From Candidatus Aminicenantes bacterium (GTDB lineage: Bacteria; Acidobacteriota; Aminicenantia; Aminicenantales; JAFGBC01), in contig OY969696.1 in NCBI GenBank assembly GCA_963702005.1, positions 800,001 through 864,000 of the forward strand: a DNA stretch of 64,000 bases, written 5' to 3'. Below the pieces are notes generated by a model that worked only from the letters and a program-made list of their open reading frames with translations, was not told the origin of the DNA and did not search any database. Within the stretch, counting starts at the first letter, position 1. Every line of letters begins with the position of its first letter. Positions 52,139-64,000 of the stretch are shown piece after piece. Both the position numbers and the translations under genes were made by a program.

Positions 52139-52252
52139 TTTATGGGAGTGTAATATAGCATAGCCCCCGACCGTTGGCAACGAAGCTACGGTCATTGACT
52201 CCAGGTCCATGCTGATATAAGTTAATCGTTGATTTTGCATTCAAGCCAGGAG

Positions 52253-53308
52253 ATGCGGAGAGTGAAAGCCCGGCTCGAACATCCCCCTCTATTGATGTTC
52301 CTCTTGGGCGGTATCGCCGGCGCGGCGGTCAACCTCGGGGTCACGCTCGCCCTCCGGGCGGGCTTGGGGGCGCCCGAGACGATAGCCTTTTTCCTGGGCA
52401 CCATGGCAAACCAGCTCTTCCATTATCTGTATTACAACTTCCTTTATGTGAATCGCGAAATCCGGCTCCGGACGCCCTTCCCGGTCAACCTTAGCCTCTA
52501 CGCTCTCGTGGCGGCCGGAGCGACCGTTCTTCTCATCCTCATCCGGAAGTCTCTCGGCTGGCCGCTCGTCCCGTCGCTTCTCGCCGTCATCGTGCTCCTG
52601 TCCGTCCTCAACTCCCTGGTGAACCGGATCTCGACCTTTTCGTCGGCCACTCTGGCCGAAGTCGAGTACCGCAACGTGGGAGAAAGTTTTTACGACGACC
52701 AAACCGACCGCGGCAAGGTCAGTCGCTTCCGGGCTTGGTACCACCGCTCCCGTTATGAGCGCCTCAAGGCGCTCATCGGTTCGGTTTGGCGTCAAGGGAT
52801 GAGGATCGTCGATTTAGGCTGCGGGAACTGCTGGTGGAACACGGACGGGATCCCGGTCACCGGGCTGGACGTGAACGAGAAGATGCTCCAGTGGGCCAAG
52901 CGCCACGGGCGCCTGACCGAGTATCGGGTCGAATCCGACCTGTCGCGGACCGGGCTGCCCGATCGGGCCTTAGATATTGTCGTTTGCTCAGAAACCCTGG
53001 AGCACCTCCTGAACTTCGAGGACGTTCTCAAAGAGATCCGCCGCATCCTCAAGGACGACGGGACGCTGGTCGTCACGGTTCCCTGGGATTTTTTCCTGGG
53101 TCCCTTTTTCGTGCTTTTCAATTTAAATTGTTTGTTCATGGCCTATGTCAAGGGCAGCCGTTATCATTTGTTTCGCTGCGGTCATATCAACCACTTTACC
53201 CGGAGACGCCTGAAGAAGGTCCTTGGGGAGGCGGGCTTCGAGGCGACTCGCTTGTCCGTGGTCAACGGGCTCCTTCTCTATGGAACCGCCCGAAAGAAAA
53301 CCTCCTAG
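52253..53308 (+). CDS. GtrA-like membrane domain fused to class I SAM methyltransferase
   Basis: Four N-terminal TM segments, then VDLGCG, GLD, SETLEHL, RILK.DG...VTVP, HIN.FT. Start may instead be the GTG at 52262. Confidence 0.75.
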   Translation: MRRVKARLEHPPLLMFLLGGIAGAAVNLGVTLALRAGLGAPETIAFFLGTMANQLFHYLYYNFLYVNREIRLRTPFPVNLSLYALVAAGATVLLILIRKSLGWPLVPSLLAVIVLLSVLNSLVNRISTFSSATLAEVEYRNVGESFYDDQTDRGKVSRFRAWYHRSRYERLKALIGSVWRQGMRIVDLGCGNCWWNTDGIPVTGLDVNEKMLQWAKRHGRLTEYRVESDLSRTGLPDRALDIVVCSETLEHLLNFEDVLKEIRRILKDDGTLVVTVPWDFFLGPFFVLFNLNCLFMAYVKGSRYHLFRCGHINHFTRRRLKKVLGEAGFEATRLSVVNGLLLYGTARKKTS

Positions 53309-53328
53309 GCTGAGCCTTCGTCCGAGGT

Positions 53329-53357
53329 TTGACTCACCCCGGCGGTTAAACTAAAAT
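53329..53357 (+). promoter_or_regulatory. sigma70 promoter (leaderless) of the SGNH/spermidine-synthase-like/TolB-like operon
   Basis: TTGACT-17 nt-TAAAAT, 6 nt before the GTG at 53364. Confidence 0.65.
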
Positions 53358-53363
53358 GCGCCT

Positions 53364-54587
53364 GTGAAAAACAACGGCCGCCGCCCACGTTTCGGATTCT
53401 TCGCGCGCAGGTTTGGCGCCGCCGCGGCGGTCCTCCTCGGCATTTTGCTGCTGACCGAAACGGGCCTTCGGATCGCCGGGTATCGGCCCGTGAAGCCGGC
53501 GGCTCTCGTCCCGAGGGCGGAAAGCTCCTACCTGAGGCTTTCCCGGAATCCCGTCCTCCGCTATGAGCTCGGGCCCGGTTTCCAGCGCTCCATCCGGAAG
53601 ATCAGGGTTGCCGTCAACTCCCGCGGCATGCGGGGACCCGAGGTCGTCCCGGCCAAAGGCGATCGGATCCGGATCATCCTGTTAGAGGACTCCGTCCATG
53701 CCGGAACCCGCGAGCCTCAAACCTTCAGCCGGAAGCTCGAGCTTCAACTCCGCGCCGTCGATCCTCGCTTCGAGGTCCTCGACATGGGGGTGGACGGATA
53801 CGATACGCTCCAGGAAATTACGGCCCTCGGGCTGTACGGGCTTTCCCTCTCTCCCGATGTTGTCGTCCTCTGCTACGATCTGAACGATATCGGGATCACG
53901 CCCGTCGACCTTAGAGGGGCCGCACCCCCGCCCGGAGAAGAGAAAAAGTCCGCGCCCCGGCTCCTGACCTTCCAATGGATCAGCCGAACCCTAAGGCCGC
54001 GCGGAGAGGGCCGGCCGTCGGAAGGGCCGGCCGGCGGGGCCGATCCCTACGGGGATCTGTTCCCTCCCGCCCCGACGGATCCCTTCCTGGAGGGACAGTT
54101 CAAGCTCATCGCCGAAAGCCAGGCGGTCTTCGCCGCGGCGTCGGGGAACGGCGCCGCGCAAGCCGTGGTCGAAAAGCCGGGGCGTCTCTGGCTCAACCAA
54201 TACCTGAACCTCAAGAATATCGGGAAGATCCGCTACGCCTTCAATAAGCTCGAAGACATGGCCTTGGAATACGGATTCAAAGTCCTCATCGTCATTCTTC
54301 CTTTCTTTTATGAGGTCAACGGTCGCTACCTGGACGAGCCCGCCCATCGGATCATCCGGGAAGAAGCTTCCCCGCATGGATTCCCGGTCGCGGACCTCCT
54401 CCATCGTTTCCAAACCGCCGGGTTCGAACGCGTCAGCCGGGACGGCGTCAACTTGAGCGATTTCGGCCACGTCGTGCTGGCCAAAGCCTTATTCCGAGTT
54501 TTGGGCCGGTTCTATTATCCCGAGTTGGAGCGGGCCGCTGAAAGTCCGTCCAAAGCCGCCAAGACAAAGGAGAGTACGAGACGATGA
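53364..54587 (+). CDS. Membrane-anchored SGNH-fold protein with degenerate catalytic motifs
   Basis: N-terminal TM (E.GLR), NSRGMRG, EDS (for GDS), GVDGY, LND, DGVN (for DxxH). Confidence 0.7.
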   Translation: MKNNGRRPRFGFFARRFGAAAAVLLGILLLTETGLRIAGYRPVKPAALVPRAESSYLRLSRNPVLRYELGPGFQRSIRKIRVAVNSRGMRGPEVVPAKGDRIRIILLEDSVHAGTREPQTFSRKLELQLRAVDPRFEVLDMGVDGYDTLQEITALGLYGLSLSPDVVVLCYDLNDIGITPVDLRGAAPPPGEEKKSAPRLLTFQWISRTLRPRGEGRPSEGPAGGADPYGDLFPPAPTDPFLEGQFKLIAESQAVFAAASGNGAAQAVVEKPGRLWLNQYLNLKNIGKIRYAFNKLEDMALEYGFKVLIVILPFFYEVNGRYLDEPAHRIIREEASPHGFPVADLLHRFQTAGFERVSRDGVNLSDFGHVVLAKALFRVLGRFYYPELERAAESPSKAAKTKESTRR

Positions 54588-57004
54588 CCACAAGCGAAGC
54601 GAAGCGCGGCCCGGCCCTGACCTATCTATTCCTGTTCCTGACATCGTTCTCGATCCTGACGCTGGAGATCACCTATGCCCGGATCTTCTCCGTCCTGACC
54701 TACTACCATTTTACCTCGATGATCATCAGCGTCGCCCTGCTCGGGTTCGGGGCGGCCGGCGCCTCCATCAGCCTCCGCTTCCGGAAGGATCGAATGGAGG
54801 AGGGGTTCCTGGGGTCGAGCCTTCTCTTTTTCTTCGGCTCGATCCTGTTCTCCTTCTACCTCATCATCAAGATCAGCTTCTATCCCCTCGAATGGAGCGC
54901 CGATTGGACGAACCAGCTGACCCTGGTCTTCTTCTACCTCGTCCTCGGGCTCCCGTTCTTCTTCGGCGGCCGGGTCATCAGCGGACTGTTCAGCCTCTAC
55001 CCGGAGCGGGCCAACGCCCTCTATTTCTTCGACCTGGTCGGCGCCGGGCTGGGGAGCCTGGGGGTCGTCGTCCTGTTCGAGGTCCTGTCGGCTCCGCTCA
55101 TCCTTCATGTCCTGGCCCTCGCCGGATTCCTGCTCCTGCTGCCGGCGGCCCGCTTCGGCCGACGGGTTCGACTCGGCGCGTTGGCTTGTCTTCTTCTCTC
55201 CGGCTTCTTCACCTACAAGCTGGCCGTGGAAAATCCGATCCTCGTCTACCCGCCGCCCTCCAAAGCCATGTTCCAGTATGCGCCGCCCTGGAAGGGGTCC
55301 GGGGCCATCGACTATTCCAAGTGGAACGTCATCGAACGGGTCGACGTGACCAAGCCCCAGGTCCGGAACGTTTGGGGGTTCGGGGGCGAGATCAGCCCCA
55401 TCTTCAGCGACCGGCAATGCGAGCTCCGCTACATTTTCAAGGACGGGATCCTCTCCTCGGGGATCATGAAGATCGATAAAAAGATTTCCGATTACGATTT
55501 CTTTTCCGGCTATATCATGGCGGCGCCCTACTACCTGTCGGCCGAACGCTTCCGCTCGACGGTCGTCATCGGCCCGGGCGGCGGCATCGACATCCTGATC
55601 GCGCTCTACCACCGGGTCTCAAACGTCATCGGCGTCGAGCTCAACCCGGAGAAGGTCCGGCTCCTCGAGGACAGGTACTATCAGTATTCGGGCCGGCTCA
55701 AGGACCACTGCACGCTCGTGCCCTGGGAAGGCCGCCATTTCCTGAGCCGCTACCGGGGCAAGGTCGACGTCATCACGACCAGCGGGCTGGACGACTACCC
55801 GGCCCTGTCCTCCGGCTCCTATGCCCTGTCCGAGCATTATATCCTGACCGTCGAGGCGATCGGGGCCATGCTCGATCACCTGACGGAGCGGGGCGTCATC
55901 TCCATCACCCGGGTTGCCTTCGACCCGCCCCGAGAGGAATTCAAGCTCGTCACGACCATGAAGGAAGCCCTGGCCCGGGCCGGCGTCGCCGACCCTTCGA
56001 AGCATTTCGCCCTGGTCAAGGGGCAGCTCTGGACCAACGTCATGCTTAAGAAGACCCCCTTCGAGCCCGGCGAGATCGCCGGACTTAAAGAGTGGGCCGC
56101 GCGGATGAAGTATAATTTCCTGTATCTGCCGGACGAGCCCCGGGACAATCCGGTCGATCAGTACATCAGGCTGGCCCGGACCGCCGAGAAAAGCTTCGTC
56201 AAGGACTATCCCTATAAGATCTCGCCGGCCTGGGATGACGCGCCGTTCTTTTTCCAGTACTACAAGTGGAGCAGCCTGTTCGCCCGGAAATCCTACCGCT
56301 GGGTCTACGACCAACTCGTCCCCCTCGGCATGCGGATCGCCTTCTTCAGCCTCGTCCAGGTGACCCTGCTCGGCCTGTTGTTCATCGCCGTCCCGCTCGG
56401 CGCCCTCAAGCTGGGCCGGAGCCGCGACTGGACGCGGCCGCTCCTCTATTTCGGGGCGCTCGGGTTCGGCTACATCCTGATCGAGATCGTCCTCATCCAG
56501 AAGTTGAACTATTTCCTGGGCGGGGCGGTCTACGCCCTGGCGGTGACTCTGTTTGCGCTCCTGACCTTCTCGGGCCTGGGAAGTTTCTTCGCCCGCAAGA
56601 AGGCCGTCAACCGGCCGTTCCTGATCCGGGTCATCGGCGCCGTCATGGGCCTCTGCCTGATCTATTTGGTGGGGCTCCACGGGCTCTTGGGCCTTCTGAT
56701 GCCTCTCGGCCGGACCCTGCGCATCGCCGCGACGGCCCTCATCATCGCGCCGCTCGGCTTCGTGATGGGCATCCCCTTCCCGTCCGGAATCCGGATGCTC
56801 AAGGTCCGGAGCCTGGAGGCGATCGTTCCCTGGTGCTGGGGCGCCAACTCGATCTTCACCGTGTTCGGATCCGTCTTCTCGCTCATCGTCAGCCTCAATT
56901 GGGGATTCAACTTGACCCTCCTCCTCGGCGTCGCGGCCTACGGCGTCGCCCTGGCCGGAGTTTCGGCCTTTTTCCCGGCGACGAAACGGACCGGCCATGT
57001 TTAA
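54584..57004 (+). CDS. Polytopic membrane protein with central spermidine-synthase-like SAM-binding domain
   Basis: LEI...RIFS, LY..DLVGAG, IGPGGG.D, VELNP, EGR.FL, DD.PFF, GIPFP.G, WGANS motifs. Confidence 0.8.
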   Translation: MTTSEAKRGPALTYLFLFLTSFSILTLEITYARIFSVLTYYHFTSMIISVALLGFGAAGASISLRFRKDRMEEGFLGSSLLFFFGSILFSFYLIIKISFYPLEWSADWTNQLTLVFFYLVLGLPFFFGGRVISGLFSLYPERANALYFFDLVGAGLGSLGVVVLFEVLSAPLILHVLALAGFLLLLPAARFGRRVRLGALACLLLSGFFTYKLAVENPILVYPPPSKAMFQYAPPWKGSGAIDYSKWNVIERVDVTKPQVRNVWGFGGEISPIFSDRQCELRYIFKDGILSSGIMKIDKKISDYDFFSGYIMAAPYYLSAERFRSTVVIGPGGGIDILIALYHRVSNVIGVELNPEKVRLLEDRYYQYSGRLKDHCTLVPWEGRHFLSRYRGKVDVITTSGLDDYPALSSGSYALSEHYILTVEAIGAMLDHLTERGVISITRVAFDPPREEFKLVTTMKEALARAGVADPSKHFALVKGQLWTNVMLKKTPFEPGEIAGLKEWAARMKYNFLYLPDEPRDNPVDQYIRLARTAEKSFVKDYPYKISPAWDDAPFFFQYYKWSSLFARKSYRWVYDQLVPLGMRIAFFSLVQVTLLGLLFIAVPLGALKLGRSRDWTRPLLYFGALGFGYILIEIVLIQKLNYFLGGAVYALAVTLFALLTFSGLGSFFARKKAVNRPFLIRVIGAVMGLCLIYLVGLHGLLGLLMPLGRTLRIAATALIIAPLGFVMGIPFPSGIRMLKVRSLEAIVPWCWGANSIFTVFGSVFSLIVSLNWGFNLTLLLGVAAYGVALAGVSAFFPATKRTGHV

Positions 57005-57983
57005 AAGGAAGCGGAAATCCCTGCCGAATATCCTGGCCGCCGGGCTCGTCCTGGCCGGGGCGTTCACCTGCTGCGGAAACAAAGACCGGGAGCCCGGACG
57101 AGCGGCGACGGGATTCCAATCGTCCGGCCCTCAGACGCCGTTCAAGGGACGGATCGTCTTTCAGTCCGACCTCGACGGGGACGACGAAATCTTCCTCCTG
57201 ACCCCGGACGGGTTGAAGAAGCTGACCGATAACGCCTGGAACGACGAATTCCCCAAATGGTCGCCGGACGGCACCCGGATCGCGTTCATGGCCAATCCCG
57301 ACGGACCCTATGAGCTGTTCGTGATGAACGCCGACGGGAGCGGGCTGGCCCCGCTCGGCCCCCGGGAGGGCCGGGCGCGGAGCCGGATCGGGTTCGCCGG
57401 TCTGGCCTGGTCTCCGGACGGGGCGACGATCGCCTTCACCGTCGAGAAAAAGAAGGGCCTTTTCCGGAGCTACAACACTTGGGCCGTGGACGTCGCGACG
57501 GGCCGGATCGAAAAATTCCTACCCTGGTTCGACGGCCAGATCGCCTCCCCCAATTTTTCGGCGCCGACGCCGTTTGTGGTTTTTACCGGCAAAAAAACCA
57601 TAGGCTGGGACGTCGCCCTGGCCGATCTCAACGCGCGCAAGGCCGTCTTCATCTCGGAAGGCCAGGGAGCCTGCCGGCCTCATTTCGCGCCGGACGGGCG
57701 GACCGTCGCCTACGTCTCGCACGCCGCGGACGGGAAGGGCGACATCTGGCTCATGGACCCGGACGGGGCGAACAAGCGGCGGCTGACCGAAAGGGACGGA
57801 ACTTACGATTATTTTCCGGGCTGGTCGCCCGACGGGAAACGGATCGTCTTCTGCTCGAATGCCGAGAGCCAATACCCCTACGAGGGACACTGGGCGCTCT
57901 GGATCGTTGAGGTCGAGACCAAGGCGGCGTCGCTTCTTTTCGATTCTCCCGGCCGGGACGTCTTTCCCGACTGGCATGAATGA
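56997..57983 (+). CDS. TolB-like PD40 beta-propeller lipoprotein
   Basis: Lipoprotein-like signal ending AFTCC; repeated P.WSPDG..I.F. Confidence 0.8.
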   Translation: MFKRKRKSLPNILAAGLVLAGAFTCCGNKDREPGRAATGFQSSGPQTPFKGRIVFQSDLDGDDEIFLLTPDGLKKLTDNAWNDEFPKWSPDGTRIAFMANPDGPYELFVMNADGSGLAPLGPREGRARSRIGFAGLAWSPDGATIAFTVEKKKGLFRSYNTWAVDVATGRIEKFLPWFDGQIASPNFSAPTPFVVFTGKKTIGWDVALADLNARKAVFISEGQGACRPHFAPDGRTVAYVSHAADGKGDIWLMDPDGANKRRLTERDGTYDYFPGWSPDGKRIVFCSNAESQYPYEGHWALWIVEVETKAASLLFDSPGRDVFPDWHE

Positions 57984-58004
57984 GGGGACGTCCGGGCGGT
58001 CCGC

Positions 58005-58982
58005 TCAGGGCATCTTCTTGAACAGAGCCTTCCAGAGATACTCGGTCGGGATCCCCAGAACCTGCCTCCGCCACAGCCGGTCGCAGCTCGCGCAGGGCTC
58101 GAGTCCGGCGTAATCCTTCCGCAACAGCCGTTCCCTGAGCCCGACCAAGGCCGGGCCGTTCCAGATCTCGGCCAACGATTGATCCCTGACGTTGTCCAGC
58201 TTGAGGAGGCCGGTGAAGTCTTGGGTGCAGGGGAGGACGTCCCCGCTCCAGAAGATGATCAGGGCCGACCAGAGGAAAGAGCAGGGAGAGTACCCGTGAT
58301 CGCGCCGGAGAGTCCCCAGGTCGCCCGCCCAGTTGTGGTACTCCTTGATGTCCAGGCCGTCGAGGGGGAGGCCCTTGAACTGGGCCAGAAATTTATTCCT
58401 GGCGTCTTTGTCCCTGCTCCTATAGCGTTCGGGCATGTCGATGAGCTCGAGGAACGTCGCCGGCTTGCGGGCGCCGAGCTCCTTCTTGAGCTCGAGGAAG
58501 CGGAGGATGTTGCCGACGGTCCGCTCGAAATCGGACTTGACCCGGATCGCCTGGTAAGTTTCGGCGTCGTAGCCGTCGAACGAGAAGGAGAACTGGTCGA
58601 GGCCGGAGGCGAGGAGTGCCCGGGCCTTGTCCTCGTCGAGGAGGGTCCCGTTCGTATGGAACTTGGTCACGATCCCCTTGTCGTGGGCGTAGCGGACCAT
58701 GTCGAAGAAGCGGGGATGGAGGAGGCTCTCGCCCCGGTGGAGGAGATGGACTTCATAGACGAAGCCGGCCGCTTCGTCGGCGATCTTCTTGAACAGGTCG
58801 AAATCCATGTATCCCTTCTGCTCTTGGGGGAGGTTCTTGTTGGGACACATGACGCAGGCCAGGTTGCACCAGCTGGTGGCCTCGATCCAGAGCCGGATCG
58901 GGAGGTAGGCGAGACGCGTCCGCTTCCGCTTATAGCTCCTGAAGATTCGGGCCAGCCGCTTGTAGTACTCGAGTTTCGTCAT
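58005..58982 (-). CDS. Radical SAM protein with SPASM/twitch domain
   Basis: CNLACVMC, GESLLHP, TNG.LL, C.FLW...I.W.G.V.PC, SL.EIWN, CASC. Confidence 0.9.
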   Translation of the reverse strand: MTKLEYYKRLARIFRSYKRKRTRLAYLPIRLWIEATSWCNLACVMCPNKNLPQEQKGYMDFDLFKKIADEAAGFVYEVHLLHRGESLLHPRFFDMVRYAHDKGIVTKFHTNGTLLDEDKARALLASGLDQFSFSFDGYDAETYQAIRVKSDFERTVGNILRFLELKKELGARKPATFLELIDMPERYRSRDKDARNKFLAQFKGLPLDGLDIKEYHNWAGDLGTLRRDHGYSPCSFLWSALIIFWSGDVLPCTQDFTGLLKLDNVRDQSLAEIWNGPALVGLRERLLRKDYAGLEPCASCDRLWRRQVLGIPTEYLWKALFKKMP

Positions 58983-59031
58983 GAGCGGCCTCTATCTTAG
59001 CATGTTCCTCGCGCTTCGGGAATGCTCGATC

Positions 59032-59308
59032 GCGCAGGAACGGCGGAGACCCGACCGGCCTTGTTCCCCTTCGGGTTTTTAACGCCGTTTCCTCGCCGCT
59101 CTTCTCGGCTCCTGCGGAGCTCGCACGTTCGATCTTAGCCTTCGAGCATGATCCAGTAGTTAATATGCCAACCTTCATAGCTTTGGGGAATAGCTCGAGA
59201 GTCCTCGTCGCCCGCAAAGCCGGGTTCCCTCGAAGCGCGGCTCGGAAAGGCTAAACCCTCAATGGTCGCTGCGGCCGGTCGGGTCTCCGCCGAGTGCGCA
59301 GTCCCTTG
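59032..59308 (-). ncRNA. Candidate structured ncRNA (about 270 nt), family unassigned
   Basis: Perfect 20-bp closing stem 59041-59060/59273-59292, extended by GCGCA/TGCGC; inner stem TTAGCCTT(TC)CGAGC/GCTCGAAGGCTAA; TATAAT at 59315-59320 on the minus strand just upstream. Confidence 0.45.
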
Positions 59309-59373
59309 AGCGGAATTATAGTTGCGCAATAAACAAGCCTAAAAGGGGAGCAAAGCCGGCCCGTTCTCCGGCA

Positions 59374-60171
59374 CTATCCTTTAAGCAATCCTAATAAGCG
59401 GACCCAGCGTTCGATGGAAACCTCCTCGGGCCGGGCGGTTTTCGGGAGGTCGAGCGCGGCCAGAGCCCGTCCGGCCGCTTCGGCCGGGATGCCGTAGCGG
59501 AGGAGGCCGTTATACAGGGTCTTGCGGCGCTGCTCGAACACGGTCCGCAGGAAGTTCCGGAAGCCCGGCTCGTCCTCCAGGGCATAGAGGGGGGCCGGCC
59601 GCGGACGCAACGAGATGAGGGCCGAGTCGACCTTGGGCGGCGGCGCGAACGAGCCCGGCGCCACTTTGAAAAGGAGCCGGACTTCGAAATGGAGCTGAAA
59701 CAGGATGGACAGGGGCGCGAAGGCTTTCCGGCCCGGCCCGGCCGCCAGCCGCTCGGCGACTTCCTTTTGGATGAGGAAAACGCCCTGGGCGAAGCGAGTT
59801 CGCAGGTCGAGGACCTTGAACAAGAGGGGCGTCGAGATCGAATAGGGGAGGTTCCCCGCGATCTTGACGGTCCAGTGAGAGGGCGCGCTTTCGAGGAGCG
59901 GCGCCCAATCGAGCTCGAGGGCGTCCCCCTCGACGAGGGTCAGTCCGGGAAGGCCCAGCTCCGCCAGACGGCGGACGAGGGCGGGGTCCTTTTCGACGGC
60001 GACGACGCGTCCCGCTTTCCCGCACAGTCGCGCCGTCAAGGCCCCCGGCCCCGGCCCGATCTCCAGGATGAAGTCCTCCGGGCCGGGCGCGATCGCGGCC
60101 GTGATCCGGTCCAGGATGCGGGGATTCTTGAGGAAGTGCTGGCCGAGGACTTGCCGTTTCGTTCGTTTCAT
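59374..60171 (-). CDS. rsmA: 16S rRNA adenine dimethyltransferase
   Basis: LGQHFL, EIGPGPG.LT, GNLPYSIS, QKEVAER, F.PPPKVDS, QRRKTL. Confidence 0.96.
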   Translation of the reverse strand: MKRTKRQVLGQHFLKNPRILDRITAAIAPGPEDFILEIGPGPGALTARLCGKAGRVVAVEKDPALVRRLAELGLPGLTLVEGDALELDWAPLLESAPSHWTVKIAGNLPYSISTPLLFKVLDLRTRFAQGVFLIQKEVAERLAAGPGRKAFAPLSILFQLHFEVRLLFKVAPGSFAPPPKVDSALISLRPRPAPLYALEDEPGFRNFLRTVFEQRRKTLYNGLLRYGIPAEAAGRALAALDLPKTARPEEVSIERWVRLLGLLKG

Positions 60172-60190
60172 GGGGGCCCGAAGCCGGCGC

Positions 60191-60937
60191 TCAGACCCTT
60201 TTCACGTTCGCCGGCGTGTATCTCCGCTTGAACTTGACGGCCATGAGCAGGGTCTCGATGAGCGTCAGCGCGCTGAGCTTGGTCTTGCCCCGGGTGCGGT
60301 CGATGAATTCGATCGGGACTTCCCCGATCCGGAACCCGAGGAGCTGGGCCTTGCGCAGGGTTTCCAGGACGACCGAGGGGCCGACCGAGATGAGGTCGTC
60401 GAGGTCGAGCGCCTCGAGGACCTCGCGCCGGAAACAGCGGAAGCCGGAGGAAACGTCCTTGACGCGGATCCGGAACAGGCGCCGGATGAAGAGACTGACG
60501 AGAATGGTGACGATGCGGCGGATGAGGCCGCGGTCGGCGTCCCGGCCGCCCTTGACCAGCCGCGAGCCGAGGACGAGGTCGTAGTCCCGGGCGGCCGCGA
60601 CCAGGGCCGGGATGAATCGGGGCTGGTGGGAGAAATCGCCGTCCATCTCGACGACGAGGTCGGGAGCTGGGACAAGGCTGGCCTTGAAGCCGTCGATCCC
60701 CCCGCTCCCCCGCCCGCGGCGTTTGGTCCGGAGAAGGAGGTGGACGCGACGGTCGGCCGCGGCCATGTCTCGGACGACGGCGGCCGTCCCGTCCGGCGAG
60801 TCGTCGTCGGCGACCAGGACTTCGAGGTCGGCGTCCAGGGGCAGGGCCAGGATCGCGGCGACCAGGTCGCGGATGTTCTCCGCCTCGTTGTAGGTCGGGA
60901 TCATGGCCACGACCTTGGGACGCAGGCTTCCGCTCAT
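60191..60937 (-). CDS. GT2 polyprenol-phosphate glycosyltransferase (DPM1-like)
   Basis: IPTYNE..N, DDDSPDGT, MDGDFSH.P, GSR, D.SSGFR, EVPI.F.DR..G.TK. Confidence 0.9.
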   Translation of the reverse strand: MSGSLRPKVVAMIPTYNEAENIRDLVAAILALPLDADLEVLVADDDSPDGTAAVVRDMAAADRRVHLLLRTKRRGRGSGGIDGFKASLVPAPDLVVEMDGDFSHQPRFIPALVAAARDYDLVLGSRLVKGGRDADRGLIRRIVTILVSLFIRRLFRIRVKDVSSGFRCFRREVLEALDLDDLISVGPSVVLETLRKAQLLGFRIGEVPIEFIDRTRGKTKLSALTLIETLLMAVKFKRRYTPANVKRV

Positions 60938-60944
60938 GGTCCCG

Positions 60945-62039
60945 TCAGATGAGCTTCCGGACTTCTTCATAGACACGCTCGGGGGAGAGGCCTTTCATGC
61001 AGACGGTGTCCGGGCAGGTCTGTCTGTAACAGGGCGCGCAGTCGGCGCCGGCGAAGAGCTTGACGCCCCGCCCGTAGAGGTCGATCTCCTGGGGGCAGGT
61101 CGGACCGAACAGGGCGACGATCTTTTTCTTGAGGCCGATCGCGATATGCATGCCCAGCGTGTCCGAGGTTACGACGGCGTCCATACGGGCGATAAATCCG
61201 GCGAATTCGAGAAGCGTGTTGTCGCAGCCCGTGTTGTGGACGCGCGGGCCCGCGCCGCGCGCCAGGGTTTCGTTCATCTTTTTCTCGCGGGGCCCGCCCA
61301 GGAGGAAGACGTCGGCGCCGAGCTTGCCGGTCAGCATCCCGATGAGCTTCCTGTAGTAAGCCACCGGCCACTGTTTGGTCTCGAACTTCGTCCCGGCCCC
61401 GGTGTTGAGGCCGACGGCGGGCTTCTTTCCCGCGATCCGCTTGGTCTTGAAGAACGCCTCCGCCTTGGCGCGAGCCTCGTCCCGGAGCTCGAAGACATAT
61501 TCGTTGCGGCGGTAGTCGACTTCGGCCGCTTCGGCGGCGATCTCCTGGTAGGTCTTCTCGTTCCGGCGGAACTTGAGGTCGTCGTCGACGCCCAGCCGGT
61601 AGGCGTAGGAAGCCGCTTCGTTGAAGGTTATGAGCGCCCCGTCCTTGTTCAGGCCGAACCCGTACTTGCGGCCGCTCCGGACCCGGGTCGCCAGGGCCGT
61701 CAGGGCCGGCTCCTTATCGAGGCAGTAGAGGGCGTCGAATTCCTCGACCTGGAGGGAAAGGATGCTCTCGAGGTTGAAGGGCAGAATCCGGTGGAGGTAG
61801 GGATTGTTGTCCAGCAGCTCGACGCTCTCCGGATCGACGACCCAGCTGATGATGCCTCCGGAATGCTTGAGGCGGAGACCGGGCAGGAGCGGCGTCGTCC
61901 TCAGGACGTCGCCCTGGGCCCGGCACTTGATGACGAGGACTTTGGGGCCGATCGCCTTGAAATCGGGGCAGTCCTCGCAGACCCGCTTGAAGCGGCAGGG
62001 CTTGTCGCCCCGGAAGTGCACGCAGTCGTTTCGGATCAT
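60945..62039 (-). CDS. GT9 (heptosyltransferase-like) glycosyltransferase
   Basis: GDVLRTTP, KQWP, GGP.E, SDT..MHIA, LFGPT, CAPC...C...CM; N-terminal C.HF.G.KPC.....C..C. Confidence 0.88.
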   Translation of the reverse strand: MIRNDCVHFRGDKPCRFKRVCEDCPDFKAIGPKVLVIKCRAQGDVLRTTPLLPGLRLKHSGGIISWVVDPESVELLDNNPYLHRILPFNLESILSLQVEEFDALYCLDKEPALTALATRVRSGRKYGFGLNKDGALITFNEAASYAYRLGVDDDLKFRRNEKTYQEIAAEAAEVDYRRNEYVFELRDEARAKAEAFFKTKRIAGKKPAVGLNTGAGTKFETKQWPVAYYRKLIGMLTGKLGADVFLLGGPREKKMNETLARGAGPRVHNTGCDNTLLEFAGFIARMDAVVTSDTLGMHIAIGLKKKIVALFGPTCPQEIDLYGRGVKLFAGADCAPCYRQTCPDTVCMKGLSPERVYEEVRKLI

Positions 62040-62125
62040 CAGGGAAGCCTTCCGTCCGGAATTAATAGTTATTTATGCCACAACTCGGCGGGAAAGACAA
62101 GGGATGGGCGGCCCAGCCGTAGCGG

Positions 62126-63520
62126 CTACTTGATAAACATGGCCCGGGCCTGGTCGAGGAGGAGGGTCAGGTCGCGGAAGCCGCGGATGCCCAGCACTTT
62201 TTTGATGAGGTAGGAGGGCCGGAGGTAAAAATCGCGCACGGCCTTCTGGCGGAGAGTCCAGATCTCCTCCTTGGTCATGGTCTCGGAGCTGAAAACGGGG
62301 AAGTCCGTGCTGTCGAAGCTCATCATGTCCCGCGCCAGCCAGCCCTTGGCGATGGCTTCCTCCCGCATCTTCGAGCCGATGTCGGGAGTCGGGACCGTGA
62401 AGGAGGCGAAGTCGCAATCGATCGCCTTGGCCAGCTTGATCGTCTCCAGGGTCGACTCGCGCGTCTCGCCGGGCAGCCCGATGATGAAGTAGGCCAGCGT
62501 TTTAATCTTGTGCCGGCGGCAGGTCCGGAAGGCCTCCAGGACCTTGGCCCGGGTCGTCCCCTTGCTGTAGCTGGCCAGAATCTCGTCCTGGGCGCTCTCG
62601 ACGCCCATCATGACCGTGTGGCAGCCGGCTTCGCGCATGGCGGACATCATCTCATCCGAGACGGTCGCGACGTGGGCGTTGGCGATCCAGCCGAAGCCCA
62701 TCCCTTCGGCCTCCATCTTCCCGCACAGTTCGGCGACCCGCTTTCGGGAGACGGTGAAGGTCGGGTCGTTGAACATGATCTCGCGGATGCCCAGCCCGCG
62801 CAGGACGCGGAGCTCCTTGACGACGTTGTCGATGTTCCGCCAGCGATAGGGCATCGAGCCTGCGACGCAGAACCGGCAGGAATAGGGGCAGCCGATCGAG
62901 GTGACGACGAGGGCGAAGGGCCGGCGCCGGGCCAGCGGGCTCCGGTTGAGACCGTGCTTGAAAAGCTCCTGGCGCGGAATCGGGATCGCGAAATCCTGCT
63001 GCTTGGGCCAGCCGGGCATCGGGTCGGGGACGGGCCGCCCCGGCAGGACGAGCGTTTTGAACGGGCCGGGCGCGCCGTCGATGAAGGCGGCGATCTCCGG
63101 ACTGACCAGGTCGAGGATGAGGGCGTCCAGGAACGGGGCCGAGCGCAGGAAATAATCGGCCTCGAACAGGAAGACCGATCCCGATCCGATAAGGAGGCAG
63201 GGGCGTTTGGCCTTGAGCCCTTCGAGAAAGCGGCGGTCGCCGGCCCAGGTCGCGGTCCCGGTCGTGAAGACGACGGCGTCGGGCTCGAAGTCAAGGATGC
63301 GCCGCTCGGCTTCCTCGGCGGTGAGCTTCTCGGCGATGGCGTCGAGGACGGCCAGGTCGAATCCGCCCAGCATCCCGCTCAACAGGACGAGGTCCGAGGG
63401 CGGCCAGTAATAGTTGGCCTTTGAGGAATAGCTCGTGTAGTAGTCGTGGAGGTAGACCTTATCCCCGGGGCAGTGGAGGAGGAGGACCTTCTTGCGGCTC
63501 CGCGCGCCGGCTTCGGCCAT
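62126..63520 (-). CDS. B12-binding-type radical SAM protein
   Basis: GCPYSCRFC, DPTFT, GVES, FIIGLPGET, FYLRP; start at ATG 63520 or 63532. Confidence 0.88.
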   Translation of the reverse strand: MAEAGARSRKKVLLLHCPGDKVYLHDYYTSYSSKANYYWPPSDLVLLSGMLGGFDLAVLDAIAEKLTAEEAERRILDFEPDAVVFTTGTATWAGDRRFLEGLKAKRPCLLIGSGSVFLFEADYFLRSAPFLDALILDLVSPEIAAFIDGAPGPFKTLVLPGRPVPDPMPGWPKQQDFAIPIPRQELFKHGLNRSPLARRRPFALVVTSIGCPYSCRFCVAGSMPYRWRNIDNVVKELRVLRGLGIREIMFNDPTFTVSRKRVAELCGKMEAEGMGFGWIANAHVATVSDEMMSAMREAGCHTVMMGVESAQDEILASYSKGTTRAKVLEAFRTCRRHKIKTLAYFIIGLPGETRESTLETIKLAKAIDCDFASFTVPTPDIGSKMREEAIAKGWLARDMMSFDSTDFPVFSSETMTKEEIWTLRQKAVRDFYLRPSYLIKKVLGIRGFRDLTLLLDQARAMFIK

Positions 63521-63525
63521 GGCCT

Positions 63526-64000
63526 TCACCATCTCGACAGGATGAGCTTGGACAGCCAGTTTCCAAGGAAGAACCGCCGTTTGGGCTGGATGGCTTGTTC
63601 GGGACAGATCTCGTTGCAGCAAAAACAGCGGATGCAGGCGGCGCGGTCGATGACGATCTTGTCGTCGGCCAGGGTCATGGCCTTGACCGGGCAGGAGGCG
63701 ACGCATGTTTTGCAGCGGGTGCACATGGCGCGGGCGACGTGAGGCTCGCTCTTGGTTAAGGCCAGGATGAGCTTGTAGAGCGAGGGGTTGACGACGGCCG
63801 TGGCCGGGAGCTTGAAATTTCGAATCACGCTTCGACGGAGGTCTTCGCCGAGGACCTCGATGTCCTCCAGACGGCCCTGGCCCAGGCCGGCCTTGGCGCA
63901 GAGCTTCGTCGTCAGGACTTTCTCGGCCGGGACGCCGATGAGCTCGGAGGCGACCGCGTCGGCGGCCACGCCGTCCGCGCCGGCGATGATGAAGCCGGTT
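63526..64000 (-). CDS. DUF362-like protein with C-terminal 2x[4Fe-4S] ferredoxin (3' part; runs off window end)
   Basis: D.VA.DAVA..L.G, GLG...L..IE..G, CTRCKTCVASCP and CIRCFCCNEICP. Confidence 0.8.
   Translation of the reverse strand, partial: TGFIIAGADGVAADAVASELIGVPAEKVLTTKLCAKAGLGQGRLEDIEVLGEDLRRSVIRNFKLPATAVVNPSLYKLILALTKSEPHVARAMCTRCKTCVASCPVKAMTLADDKIVIDRAACIRCFCCNEICPEQAIQPKRRFFLGNWLSKLILSRW

What the first reader, a model, noticed from the sequence alone, without database searches (positions are those of the whole stretch)
59032..59320. About 270-nt closed, multi-stem element with its own -10 box: candidate novel ncRNA
Seen: CGGCGGAGACCCGACCGGCC (59041-59060) is the exact reverse complement of 59273-59292, and pairing continues past an internal loop (GCGCA/TGCGC). 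Inside are a second long helix (TTAGCCTT..CGAGC/GCTCGAAGGCTAA), a sub-helix TCGAGGG/CTCTCGA that needs a G-U pair on the minus strand, small hairpins (GCTCC-GCA-GGAGC, CCC-GAA-GGG) and a purine-rich unpaired arm. A minus-strand TATAAT lies about 15 nt above the stem. The downstream radical SAM gene has its own TGnTAAGAT, so this need not be its leader. No target-site duplication is visible. I could not match it by eye to tmRNA, RNase P, SRP or a cobalamin riboswitch; a divergent 6S RNA is not excluded.
Basis: partly seen in the sequence, partly recalled or inferred. Interest (0 to 1): 0.7.

Follow-up and report, generated by a model that had tools for sequence, protein, structure and literature searches.

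The report
Folded repeat riding miniature transposons
This is one aged copy of an undescribed, tightly folded repeat that has spread through one group of uncultured bacteria inside several kinds of miniature transposon; its fold is conserved better than the transposon ends that carry it, but it is not a stand-alone RNA gene with its own promoter.

Summary
The fold is real (z -5.7, no Rfam match), but it is not a unique ncRNA gene. It is one copy of a dispersed ~200-nt rod-shaped repeat, found in 41 of 64 other genomes of the order (probably Aminicenantales) and in none of the other genomes searched. Here it sits in a ~371-bp insertion at the end of rsmA; six relatives with the same gene junction lack it. 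The upstream TATAAT is copy-specific (5 of 223), the 'second helix' is not the conserved one, and copies show no preference for the transcribed strand. What remains surprising: 43 of 61 pairs covary, several tandem G.A mismatches are nearly invariant, and in young families the core has about half the private mutations of the transposon ends. So the single-strand fold is constrained; whether as DNA or RNA is open. This scan already reported the family from other DNA (e1-6387700, e1-4340367).

The parts
59006..59376 (-). Whole lineage-specific insertion (~371 bp) into the last codons of rsmA; ends inferred; a 4-nt direct repeat flanks it (may be chance); no recognisable transposon ends left
   Evidence: Alignment to the empty site in G001; six relatives with rsmA beside the radical SAM gene lack the core there; its flanks are unique in the genome
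59273..59292 (-). 5' arm of the outer stem P1 (sequence differs between copies, pairing kept)
59041..59060 (-). 3' arm of the outer stem P1
59193..59272 (-). Conserved core, 5' strand of the rod: short helices separated by tandem G.A mismatches, one three-way junction
   Evidence: alignment A1, pair counts, coordinates
59244..59258 (-). 5' side of the most invariant helix and asymmetric loop (pairs with 59073-59092); five pairs identical in 51 of 51 copies
59211..59224 (-). Side hairpin at the three-way junction; variable, a frequent landing place of other palindromic repeats in relatives
59125..59192 (-). Variable terminal loop (about 65-70 nt in most copies, about 35 or 3 nt in some families)
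59061..59124 (-). Conserved core, 3' strand of the rod
59295..59311 (-). Imperfect outer extension of P1 (pairs with 59024-59036); copy-specific
59315..59320 (-).
59355..59372 (.). Small G+C hairpin just after the new rsmA stop codon; scored as terminator-like on the plus strand only
58994..59002 (-). Host extended -10-like box of the radical SAM gene; older than the insertion; in the sister genome it overlaps the rsmA stop codon
59374..60171 (-). rsmA (ksgA) 16S rRNA dimethyltransferase, upstream neighbour
   Evidence: TIGR00755, 231 bits, over the cut-off of 171
58005..58982 (-). Radical SAM/SPASM-type protein, downstream neighbour
   Evidence: many radical SAM models, all 25 shown below their cut-offs

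Best explanation
An aged copy of a non-autonomous mobile repeat. SHOWN: a ~200-nt fold-back core is carried between the terminal inverted repeats of at least two ISL3 subfamilies and a third end type, duplicates 8-10 bp of target, lands in intergenic sites (one ISL3 type directly before -35 boxes), and turns over quickly between sister genomes; this copy entered the rsmA end just above a host promoter. INFERRED: it was delivered in trans by an IS transposase and its ends then decayed; the unique, perfect outer stems are extended and homogenised by template switching at the base of a stable hairpin. INFERRED, weaker: the core is kept because one strand must fold into this particular rod and be recognised by a protein, most likely as single-stranded DNA during replication or transposition, favouring the element's own spread or survival. 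The tandem G.A design makes one strand stable while the other strand and the duplex are not a perfect palindrome.
For: Copies in 37 of 61 genomes by BLAST and 41 of 64 order genomes by the covariance model. Of 191 full cores with complete flanks, 56 have both type-A ends (32 with an 8-bp duplication) and 25 both type-B ends (16 with 8-10 bp). Type-A ends are those of autonomous ISL3 elements; type-B ends match other ISL3 elements. A -35-like word follows 22 of 30 type-B right ends at 8-10 nt, against 2 of 72 type-A ends. Type-D ends: 6 of 11 with a 9-bp duplication. Empty or differently filled orthologous sites. No recurring neighbour gene: 307 neighbours in 254 clusters, largest 4. Constraint: 43 of 61 pairs with two-sided changes; private substitutions 14.0 per 1000 in the core against 28.5 in the ends, 39.4 in spacers and 33.8 in the variable loop, equally low at paired and unpaired core sites, in all four young families and at both G/C and A/T sites. 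Against a transcript role: sense 14 vs antisense 18 in tandem gene contexts, no conserved promoter.
Against: This copy itself shows no recognisable transposon ends, and the genome has no ISL3 transposase; 89 of 191 cores lack type-A/B ends. None of 57 further transposase loci contains the core, and internally deleted derivatives occur in several copies with intact ends (7 in G024), so the inner rod is not strictly required for movement. Type-D shells carry other cargo too (13 of 13 paired elements printed lacked this core). Conserved tandem G.U wobbles and G.U outnumbering A.C (83 vs 46 in the core) fit RNA at least as well as DNA. Replichore bias is uneven (66 of 99 overall, 14 of 15 in G003 but 11 of 23 in G056). 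No binding protein was found. The mutation test is partly biased, because many loci were first found through core similarity.
Confidence: 0.55

Rival explanations
1. A functional structured RNA spread by MITEs: copies are transcribed from flanking or cryptic promoters and the rod binds a host protein (sponge, transcript stabiliser or insulator), so the host keeps each copy's core while the ends decay.
For: Strong covariation; strand-specific fold, tandem G.U pairs in 47 and 50 of 51 copies, K-turn-like G.A motifs; core more constrained than the ends; cores with perfect outer stems persist where no ends are recognisable; this copy lies on the sense strand of its operon.
Against: No conserved promoter and no sense-strand preference; absent from 23 of 64 order genomes; none of the full canonical copies of G000 is shared as a full copy with G001 at the same site.
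Confidence: 0.27
2. A neutral MITE cargo. Apparent covariation and low mutation load come from template switching between the arms and gene conversion between copies, not from selection.
For: An orthologous truncated pair shows a multi-base change that makes the outer stem perfect in G000; chimeric and mosaic copies exist; one G.A tandem is converted to pairs in about 7 of 51 copies; deletion derivatives persist.
Against: Template switching should erase mismatches, yet four other G.A tandems are kept in 45-51 of 51 copies; unpaired core sites are as depleted of private mutations as paired ones, while the loop in the very middle of the element mutates fastest.
Confidence: 0.13
3. A divergent, amplified 6S RNA.
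For: Long irregular hairpin of similar size; no 6S RNA was identified in this genome by Rfam or between zapA and rny.
Against: No RF00013 match at E<=1; the consensus has no large central bubble; mobile, with patchy distribution and target duplications.
Confidence: 0.03

Closest known systems
ISL3-family insertion sequences and their MITEs
   Same: Same terminal repeats as autonomous ISL3 elements of the same order, 8-9-bp target duplication, no coding capacity, recent bursts.
   Different: The cargo is not a transposase remnant but a conserved fold absent from the autonomous elements examined, shared between two ISL3 end types and a third type; this copy has no ends left.
bcr1 repeat of the Bacillus cereus group (PMC3184786, passages read)
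   Same: Lineage-restricted mobile repeat, non-conserved positions between relatives, fold kept by compensatory changes.
   Different: bcr1 is ~155 bp, cruciform-like, with 5-bp direct repeats and shown to be transcribed; this is a longer rod with tandem G.A motifs in several kinds of IS shell. Sequence kinship with bcr1 was not tested.
Promoter-targeting Mutator-like elements TnGBS / ISLre2 / ISKra4 (PMC3942029, passages read)
   Same: Oriented insertion above -35 boxes; type-D shells give 9-bp duplications with -35-like words 9-16 nt from the end in 6 of 11 cases.
   Different: Type-B shells belong to ISL3 and sit 8-10 nt from the -35 box, not 15-17; the transposase of type D was not found.
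REP / CGTC repeats, BIME mosaics and Ssn-linked SRM hairpins (PMC3733652, PMC11893778, passages read)
   Same: Palindromic, intergenic, nested in mosaics; candidates for recognition as single-stranded DNA.
   Different: REPs are 20-40 bp with GTAG or CGTC tags; this core is ~200 nt without them; the one small GIY-YIG gene of the genus is not flanked by the repeat.
6S RNA (RF00013)
   Same: Closed irregular hairpin of 200-250 nt.
   Different: No model match, no central bubble, multi-copy and mobile.

Membership tests
MITE (family level) | Many dispersed copies, no coding capacity | tested here: met
MITE (family level) | Terminal inverted repeats shared with an autonomous IS | tested here: met
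   type A and B ends match ISL3 elements
MITE (family level) | Target-site duplication | tested here: met
   32 of 56 type A, 16 of 25 type B, 6 of 11 type D
MITE (this copy) | Own terminal repeats and target duplication | tested here: inconclusive
   No type A-D end recognisable; only a 4-nt direct repeat at the inferred ends
MITE (this copy) | Empty orthologous site in relatives | tested here: met
   6 of 6 relatives with the same gene junction lack the core
MITE (family level) | Mobilisation in trans by the transposase | not testable with these tools
   needs a transposition assay
Independent ncRNA gene | Conserved structure with covariation | tested here: met
   43 of 61 pairs, 0 of 500 shuffles, far above slid controls
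Independent ncRNA gene | Conserved own promoter | tested here: not met
Independent ncRNA gene | Conserved locus (synteny) | tested here: not met
Independent ncRNA gene | Discrete transcript | not testable with these tools
   no RNA holder listed
6S RNA | Match to RF00013 | tested here: not met
6S RNA | Large central bubble between two stems | tested here: not met
   consensus is a near-continuous rod
6S RNA | Binds sigma-70 holoenzyme | not testable with these tools
   bench test
RNase P, tRNA, tmRNA | Model match | tested here: not met
   RNase P lies elsewhere in the genome; no tRNA or tmRNA in the window
REP / SRM repeat with dedicated nuclease | Repeat flanks its RAYT or Ssn gene | tested here: inconclusive
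   Small GIY-YIG gene not flanked; no recurring neighbour; the RAYT family itself was not searched with a profile
IS110-type bridge RNA or other guide RNA | Variable loop specifies each target | tested here: not met
   Young copies at different sites share nearly the same loop; this loop matches nothing else in the genome

The most novel reading that the evidence does not exclude
The core is itself a selfish structured nucleic acid (a folded single-stranded recombination substrate, or a catalytic or protein-binding RNA) that repeatedly moves into the shells of unrelated transposons and is selected at its own level: a shell-hopping passenger with a defined three-dimensional fold, unlike ordinary MITE filler.
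Probability: 0.15. Interest if true: 0.75.

Novelty: new variant of a known kind. Interest (0 to 1): 0.45.

Why it matters
MITE interiors are usually treated as decaying filler. Here the interior is better conserved than the ends that the transposase needs, has invariant non-canonical motifs, and has been carried by several end types across an order. That gives a direct test of an old question: why do bacterial mobile repeats keep elaborate folds, and does the fold act as DNA or as RNA? It also warns ncRNA screens that strong covariation can mark mobile repeats. A side result, an ISL3 subfamily that inserts 9 bp above -35 boxes, parallels the known promoter targeting of Mutator-like elements.

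Tried and rejected
Rfam scans of the region, the element alone and a minimal natural copy: chance hits only. tRNA/tmRNA: none. 6S at the zapA-rny interval: no match. Phages and plasmids: 0 matches in viral contigs with one exact pattern; only short chance hits in plasmid and phage records. An autonomous element holding both core and transposase: not found among about 340 core loci or 57 transposase loci; one core lies beside, not inside, an ISL3. The transposase of type-D ends: not found; one 1297-bp type-D element has no ORF of 150 aa. Type-C outer arms show no target duplication in 7 cases and look like a further palindromic layer, not transposon ends. Link to an Ssn-type nuclease: not seen; a crude motif scan for GIY-YIG and Y1 proteins printed nothing, although the profile search found two GIY-YIG genes, so that scan is uninformative. 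Loop sequences did not separate RNA-type from DNA-type hairpins; DNA and RNA folding gave similar z-scores. Expression: no RNA holder listed, nothing laid from three runs of one study; this is no evidence either way. The overlapping 95-aa and 64-aa ORFs were not pursued, since the family's conservation follows base pairing and tolerates large deletions. Literature searches for this family found no relevant paper; the library lacks most subscription journals, and no supplements (for example motif lists of large RNA screens) were read.

Full report
Observation. The minus strand of 59020-59320 folds at -137.3 kcal/mol, z -5.73; the plus strand gives z -5.22. Rfam has no match over the element beyond an E 8.9 chance hit. 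TATAAT at 59315-59320 has no -35 box and precedes 5 of 223 copies.

A dispersed family. BLAST finds the ~220-nt core in 37 of 61 genomes. A covariance model built from 51 diverse copies (chosen from 68 cluster representatives, leaving out near-duplicates, mis-anchored rows and copies with inserts) finds it in 41 of 64 other genomes of the order and 0 of 86 other genomes of the class, and in 0 of 150 further genomes of the phylum (only 13 candidates were scored per genome). An exact pattern hit 5 of 16 order genomes and 0 of 384 others. Records titled Eubacteriales or Clostridiales have flanking proteins as close to this genome (median 66%) as the Aminicenantes records (65%), against 38% for loci without the core, so those titles do not show a wider range; two records titled Desulfaltia (44 and 61%) are unresolved. 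The window's taxon is thus inferred, not given. This genome holds three full copies, one divergent copy and several truncated ones.

Structure. The consensus is a nearly continuous rod: a variable outer stem, short helices separated by tandem G.A mismatches, an invariant helix with an asymmetric loop, a three-way junction with a side hairpin, a tandem G.U with a K-turn-like end, and a terminal loop that can shrink from about 70 to 3 nt. Of 61 pairs, 43 show two-sided changes; 90% of cells pair, against 39-50% for slid controls (related sequences inflate the shuffle control, and the structure was drawn from these sequences). Four G.A tandems are kept in 45-51 of 51 copies, a fifth in 38-41. The core strand folds better in 50 of 51 copies; G.U outnumbers A.C 244 to 70 over all pairs and 83 to 46 in the core without the tandem wobble. 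The family fold is the best fold of this copy, and lies within 1 kcal/mol of the best fold in 30 of 51 copies.

Mobility. In G020 and G003 the core lies in young, 88-99% identical families with terminal repeats and target duplications. Among 191 full cores with complete flanks, 56 have both type-A ends (32 with an 8-bp duplication, A+T-rich sites), 25 both type-B ends (16 with 8-10 bp), 21 one end and 89 neither. Type-A ends are those of autonomous ISL3 elements. Type-B ends match other ISL3 elements, which also sit 9 bp above a -35 box; 22 of 30 type-B right ends are followed by a -35-like word at 8-10 nt, against 2 of 72 type-A ends. A third end type (D) gives 9-bp duplications in 6 of 11 cases and recalls the promoter-targeting Mutator-like elements of PMC3942029 (passages read), but its transposase was not found. 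No transposase locus examined has the core inside the element. Type-D shells also carry other fold-back cargo, and other palindromic repeats land inside this core, so the order hosts a nested set of such repeats.

This copy. In the sister genome G001, rsmA runs straight into the radical SAM gene's -10 box; G000 has about 371 extra bases there. G010 has its own copy after rsmA and two others hold unrelated inserts, which fits a hot spot above a promoter. No type A-D ends are recognisable here, and G000 has no ISL3 transposase. Other sites shared by G000, G001 and G002 are empty, hold remnants, or hold a different variant in the opposite direction.

Constraint. In four young families collected by their ends (26, 13, 9 and 6 copies), private substitutions run at 14.0 per 1000 sites in the core, 28.5 in the ends, 39.4 in spacers and 33.8 in the variable loop; paired and unpaired core sites are equal. 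The contrast holds in each family (p 0.02 to 9e-8) and at G/C and A/T sites separately. Caveats: many loci were first found through core similarity, copies are not independent, and 44 of 64 private changes at paired core sites break the pair, so decay does occur. Against a strict need for the core, internally deleted versions with intact ends occur 7 times in G024 and 3 times with the same junction in G554.

DNA or RNA. Neighbours do not recur. In tandem gene contexts the core is sense 14 times and antisense 18 times (crude gene calls, an earlier cruder count gave 27 and 30). The core strand reads against replication in 66 of 99 copies of five closed genomes, mostly through G003 (14 of 15), with no bias in G056 (11 of 23) (origins taken at dnaA). 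A strand-specific fold with no tie to transcription and no promoter points to single-stranded DNA; the tandem G.U and K-turn-like motifs point to RNA. That tandem G.A pairs are stable in both is recalled, not tested. Expression could not be examined. Template switching, described for imperfect inverted repeats in PMC3820800 (search listing and start of abstract only), can explain the perfect, copy-specific outer stems and some apparent covariation (example), but not the persistence of the mismatches.

Comparison and novelty. It works like bcr1, ERIC or Correia elements: mobile repeats with folds, as reviewed in PMC3184786 and PMC3733652 (passages read; the primary bcr1 papers were not read). 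At family level it meets the MITE tests; it fails the tests for an independent ncRNA gene (promoter, synteny) and for 6S RNA, although no other 6S gene was identified in this genome. Four literature searches found no description. This scan has met the family before: the copy near purM in this genome and a related mosaic in another genome (looked up after my reading was fixed). New here are the empty-site series, the link of both end types to autonomous ISL3 elements, the third shell type, the mutation-load test and the lack of sense bias.

Verdict. Real structure; new variant of a known kind; mobile repeat with about 90% confidence; the reason for its conserved fold is open (selection on the element as DNA 0.55, host or RNA role 0.27, neutral 0.13). 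Interest 0.45.

Noticed in passing
L470:1-1330, L472:1429-2490, L485:1437-1460, L091:330-380, L094:230-280: An ISL3 subfamily whose autonomous elements and MITEs insert, in fixed orientation, 9 bp above TTGACA-like -35 boxes; such promoter targeting is described for Mutator-like families; whether it is in print for ISL3 was not established.
   Followed up: partly
L489, L490, L491, L492, L498, L500, L501, L502, L509, L514 (central 180-420 bp): Type-D MITE shells (9-bp duplication, up to about 25 elements per genome) carry several other G.A-rich fold-back cargoes; their transposase was not found.
   Followed up: partly
L045, L177, L509, and G000:C1:2841420-2841545 (L240): A second structured repeat family inserts into the side hairpin of this core and also occurs in type-D shells.
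   Followed up: no
L237, L238, L239 (G000:C1:262515-262585, 2450332-2450407, 3347805-3347876): Truncated copies that keep only a perfect, unique outer stem and the first G.A motif; one is shared with G001, with a multi-base change that perfects the stem.
   Followed up: partly
L236 (G000:C1:2258697-2258926), L393, L395: A divergent subfamily of the core confined so far to this genus; at one site G001 holds a canonical copy in the opposite direction.
   Followed up: partly
G003, whole chromosome: 14 of 15 copies are oriented against replication although most sit above promoters in the same sense; may reflect fork-dependent orientation of the ISL3 type-B transposase.
   Followed up: partly
L430:1245-1422: The zapA-rny interval, a usual 6S RNA site (recalled), holds a G+C-rich palindromic stretch with no Rfam 6S match; this genome's 6S RNA is unidentified.
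   Followed up: partly
L123, L152, L274, L289, L308, L331, L337 (outer arms): Type-C outer arms extend the rod with further tandem G.A stems and show no target duplication.
   Followed up: partly
window 52229-63724: Surrounding cluster of cell-envelope-type genes (glycosyltransferase, heptosyltransferase-like protein, TolB-like propeller, a second radical SAM-like protein); ordinary.
   Followed up: no
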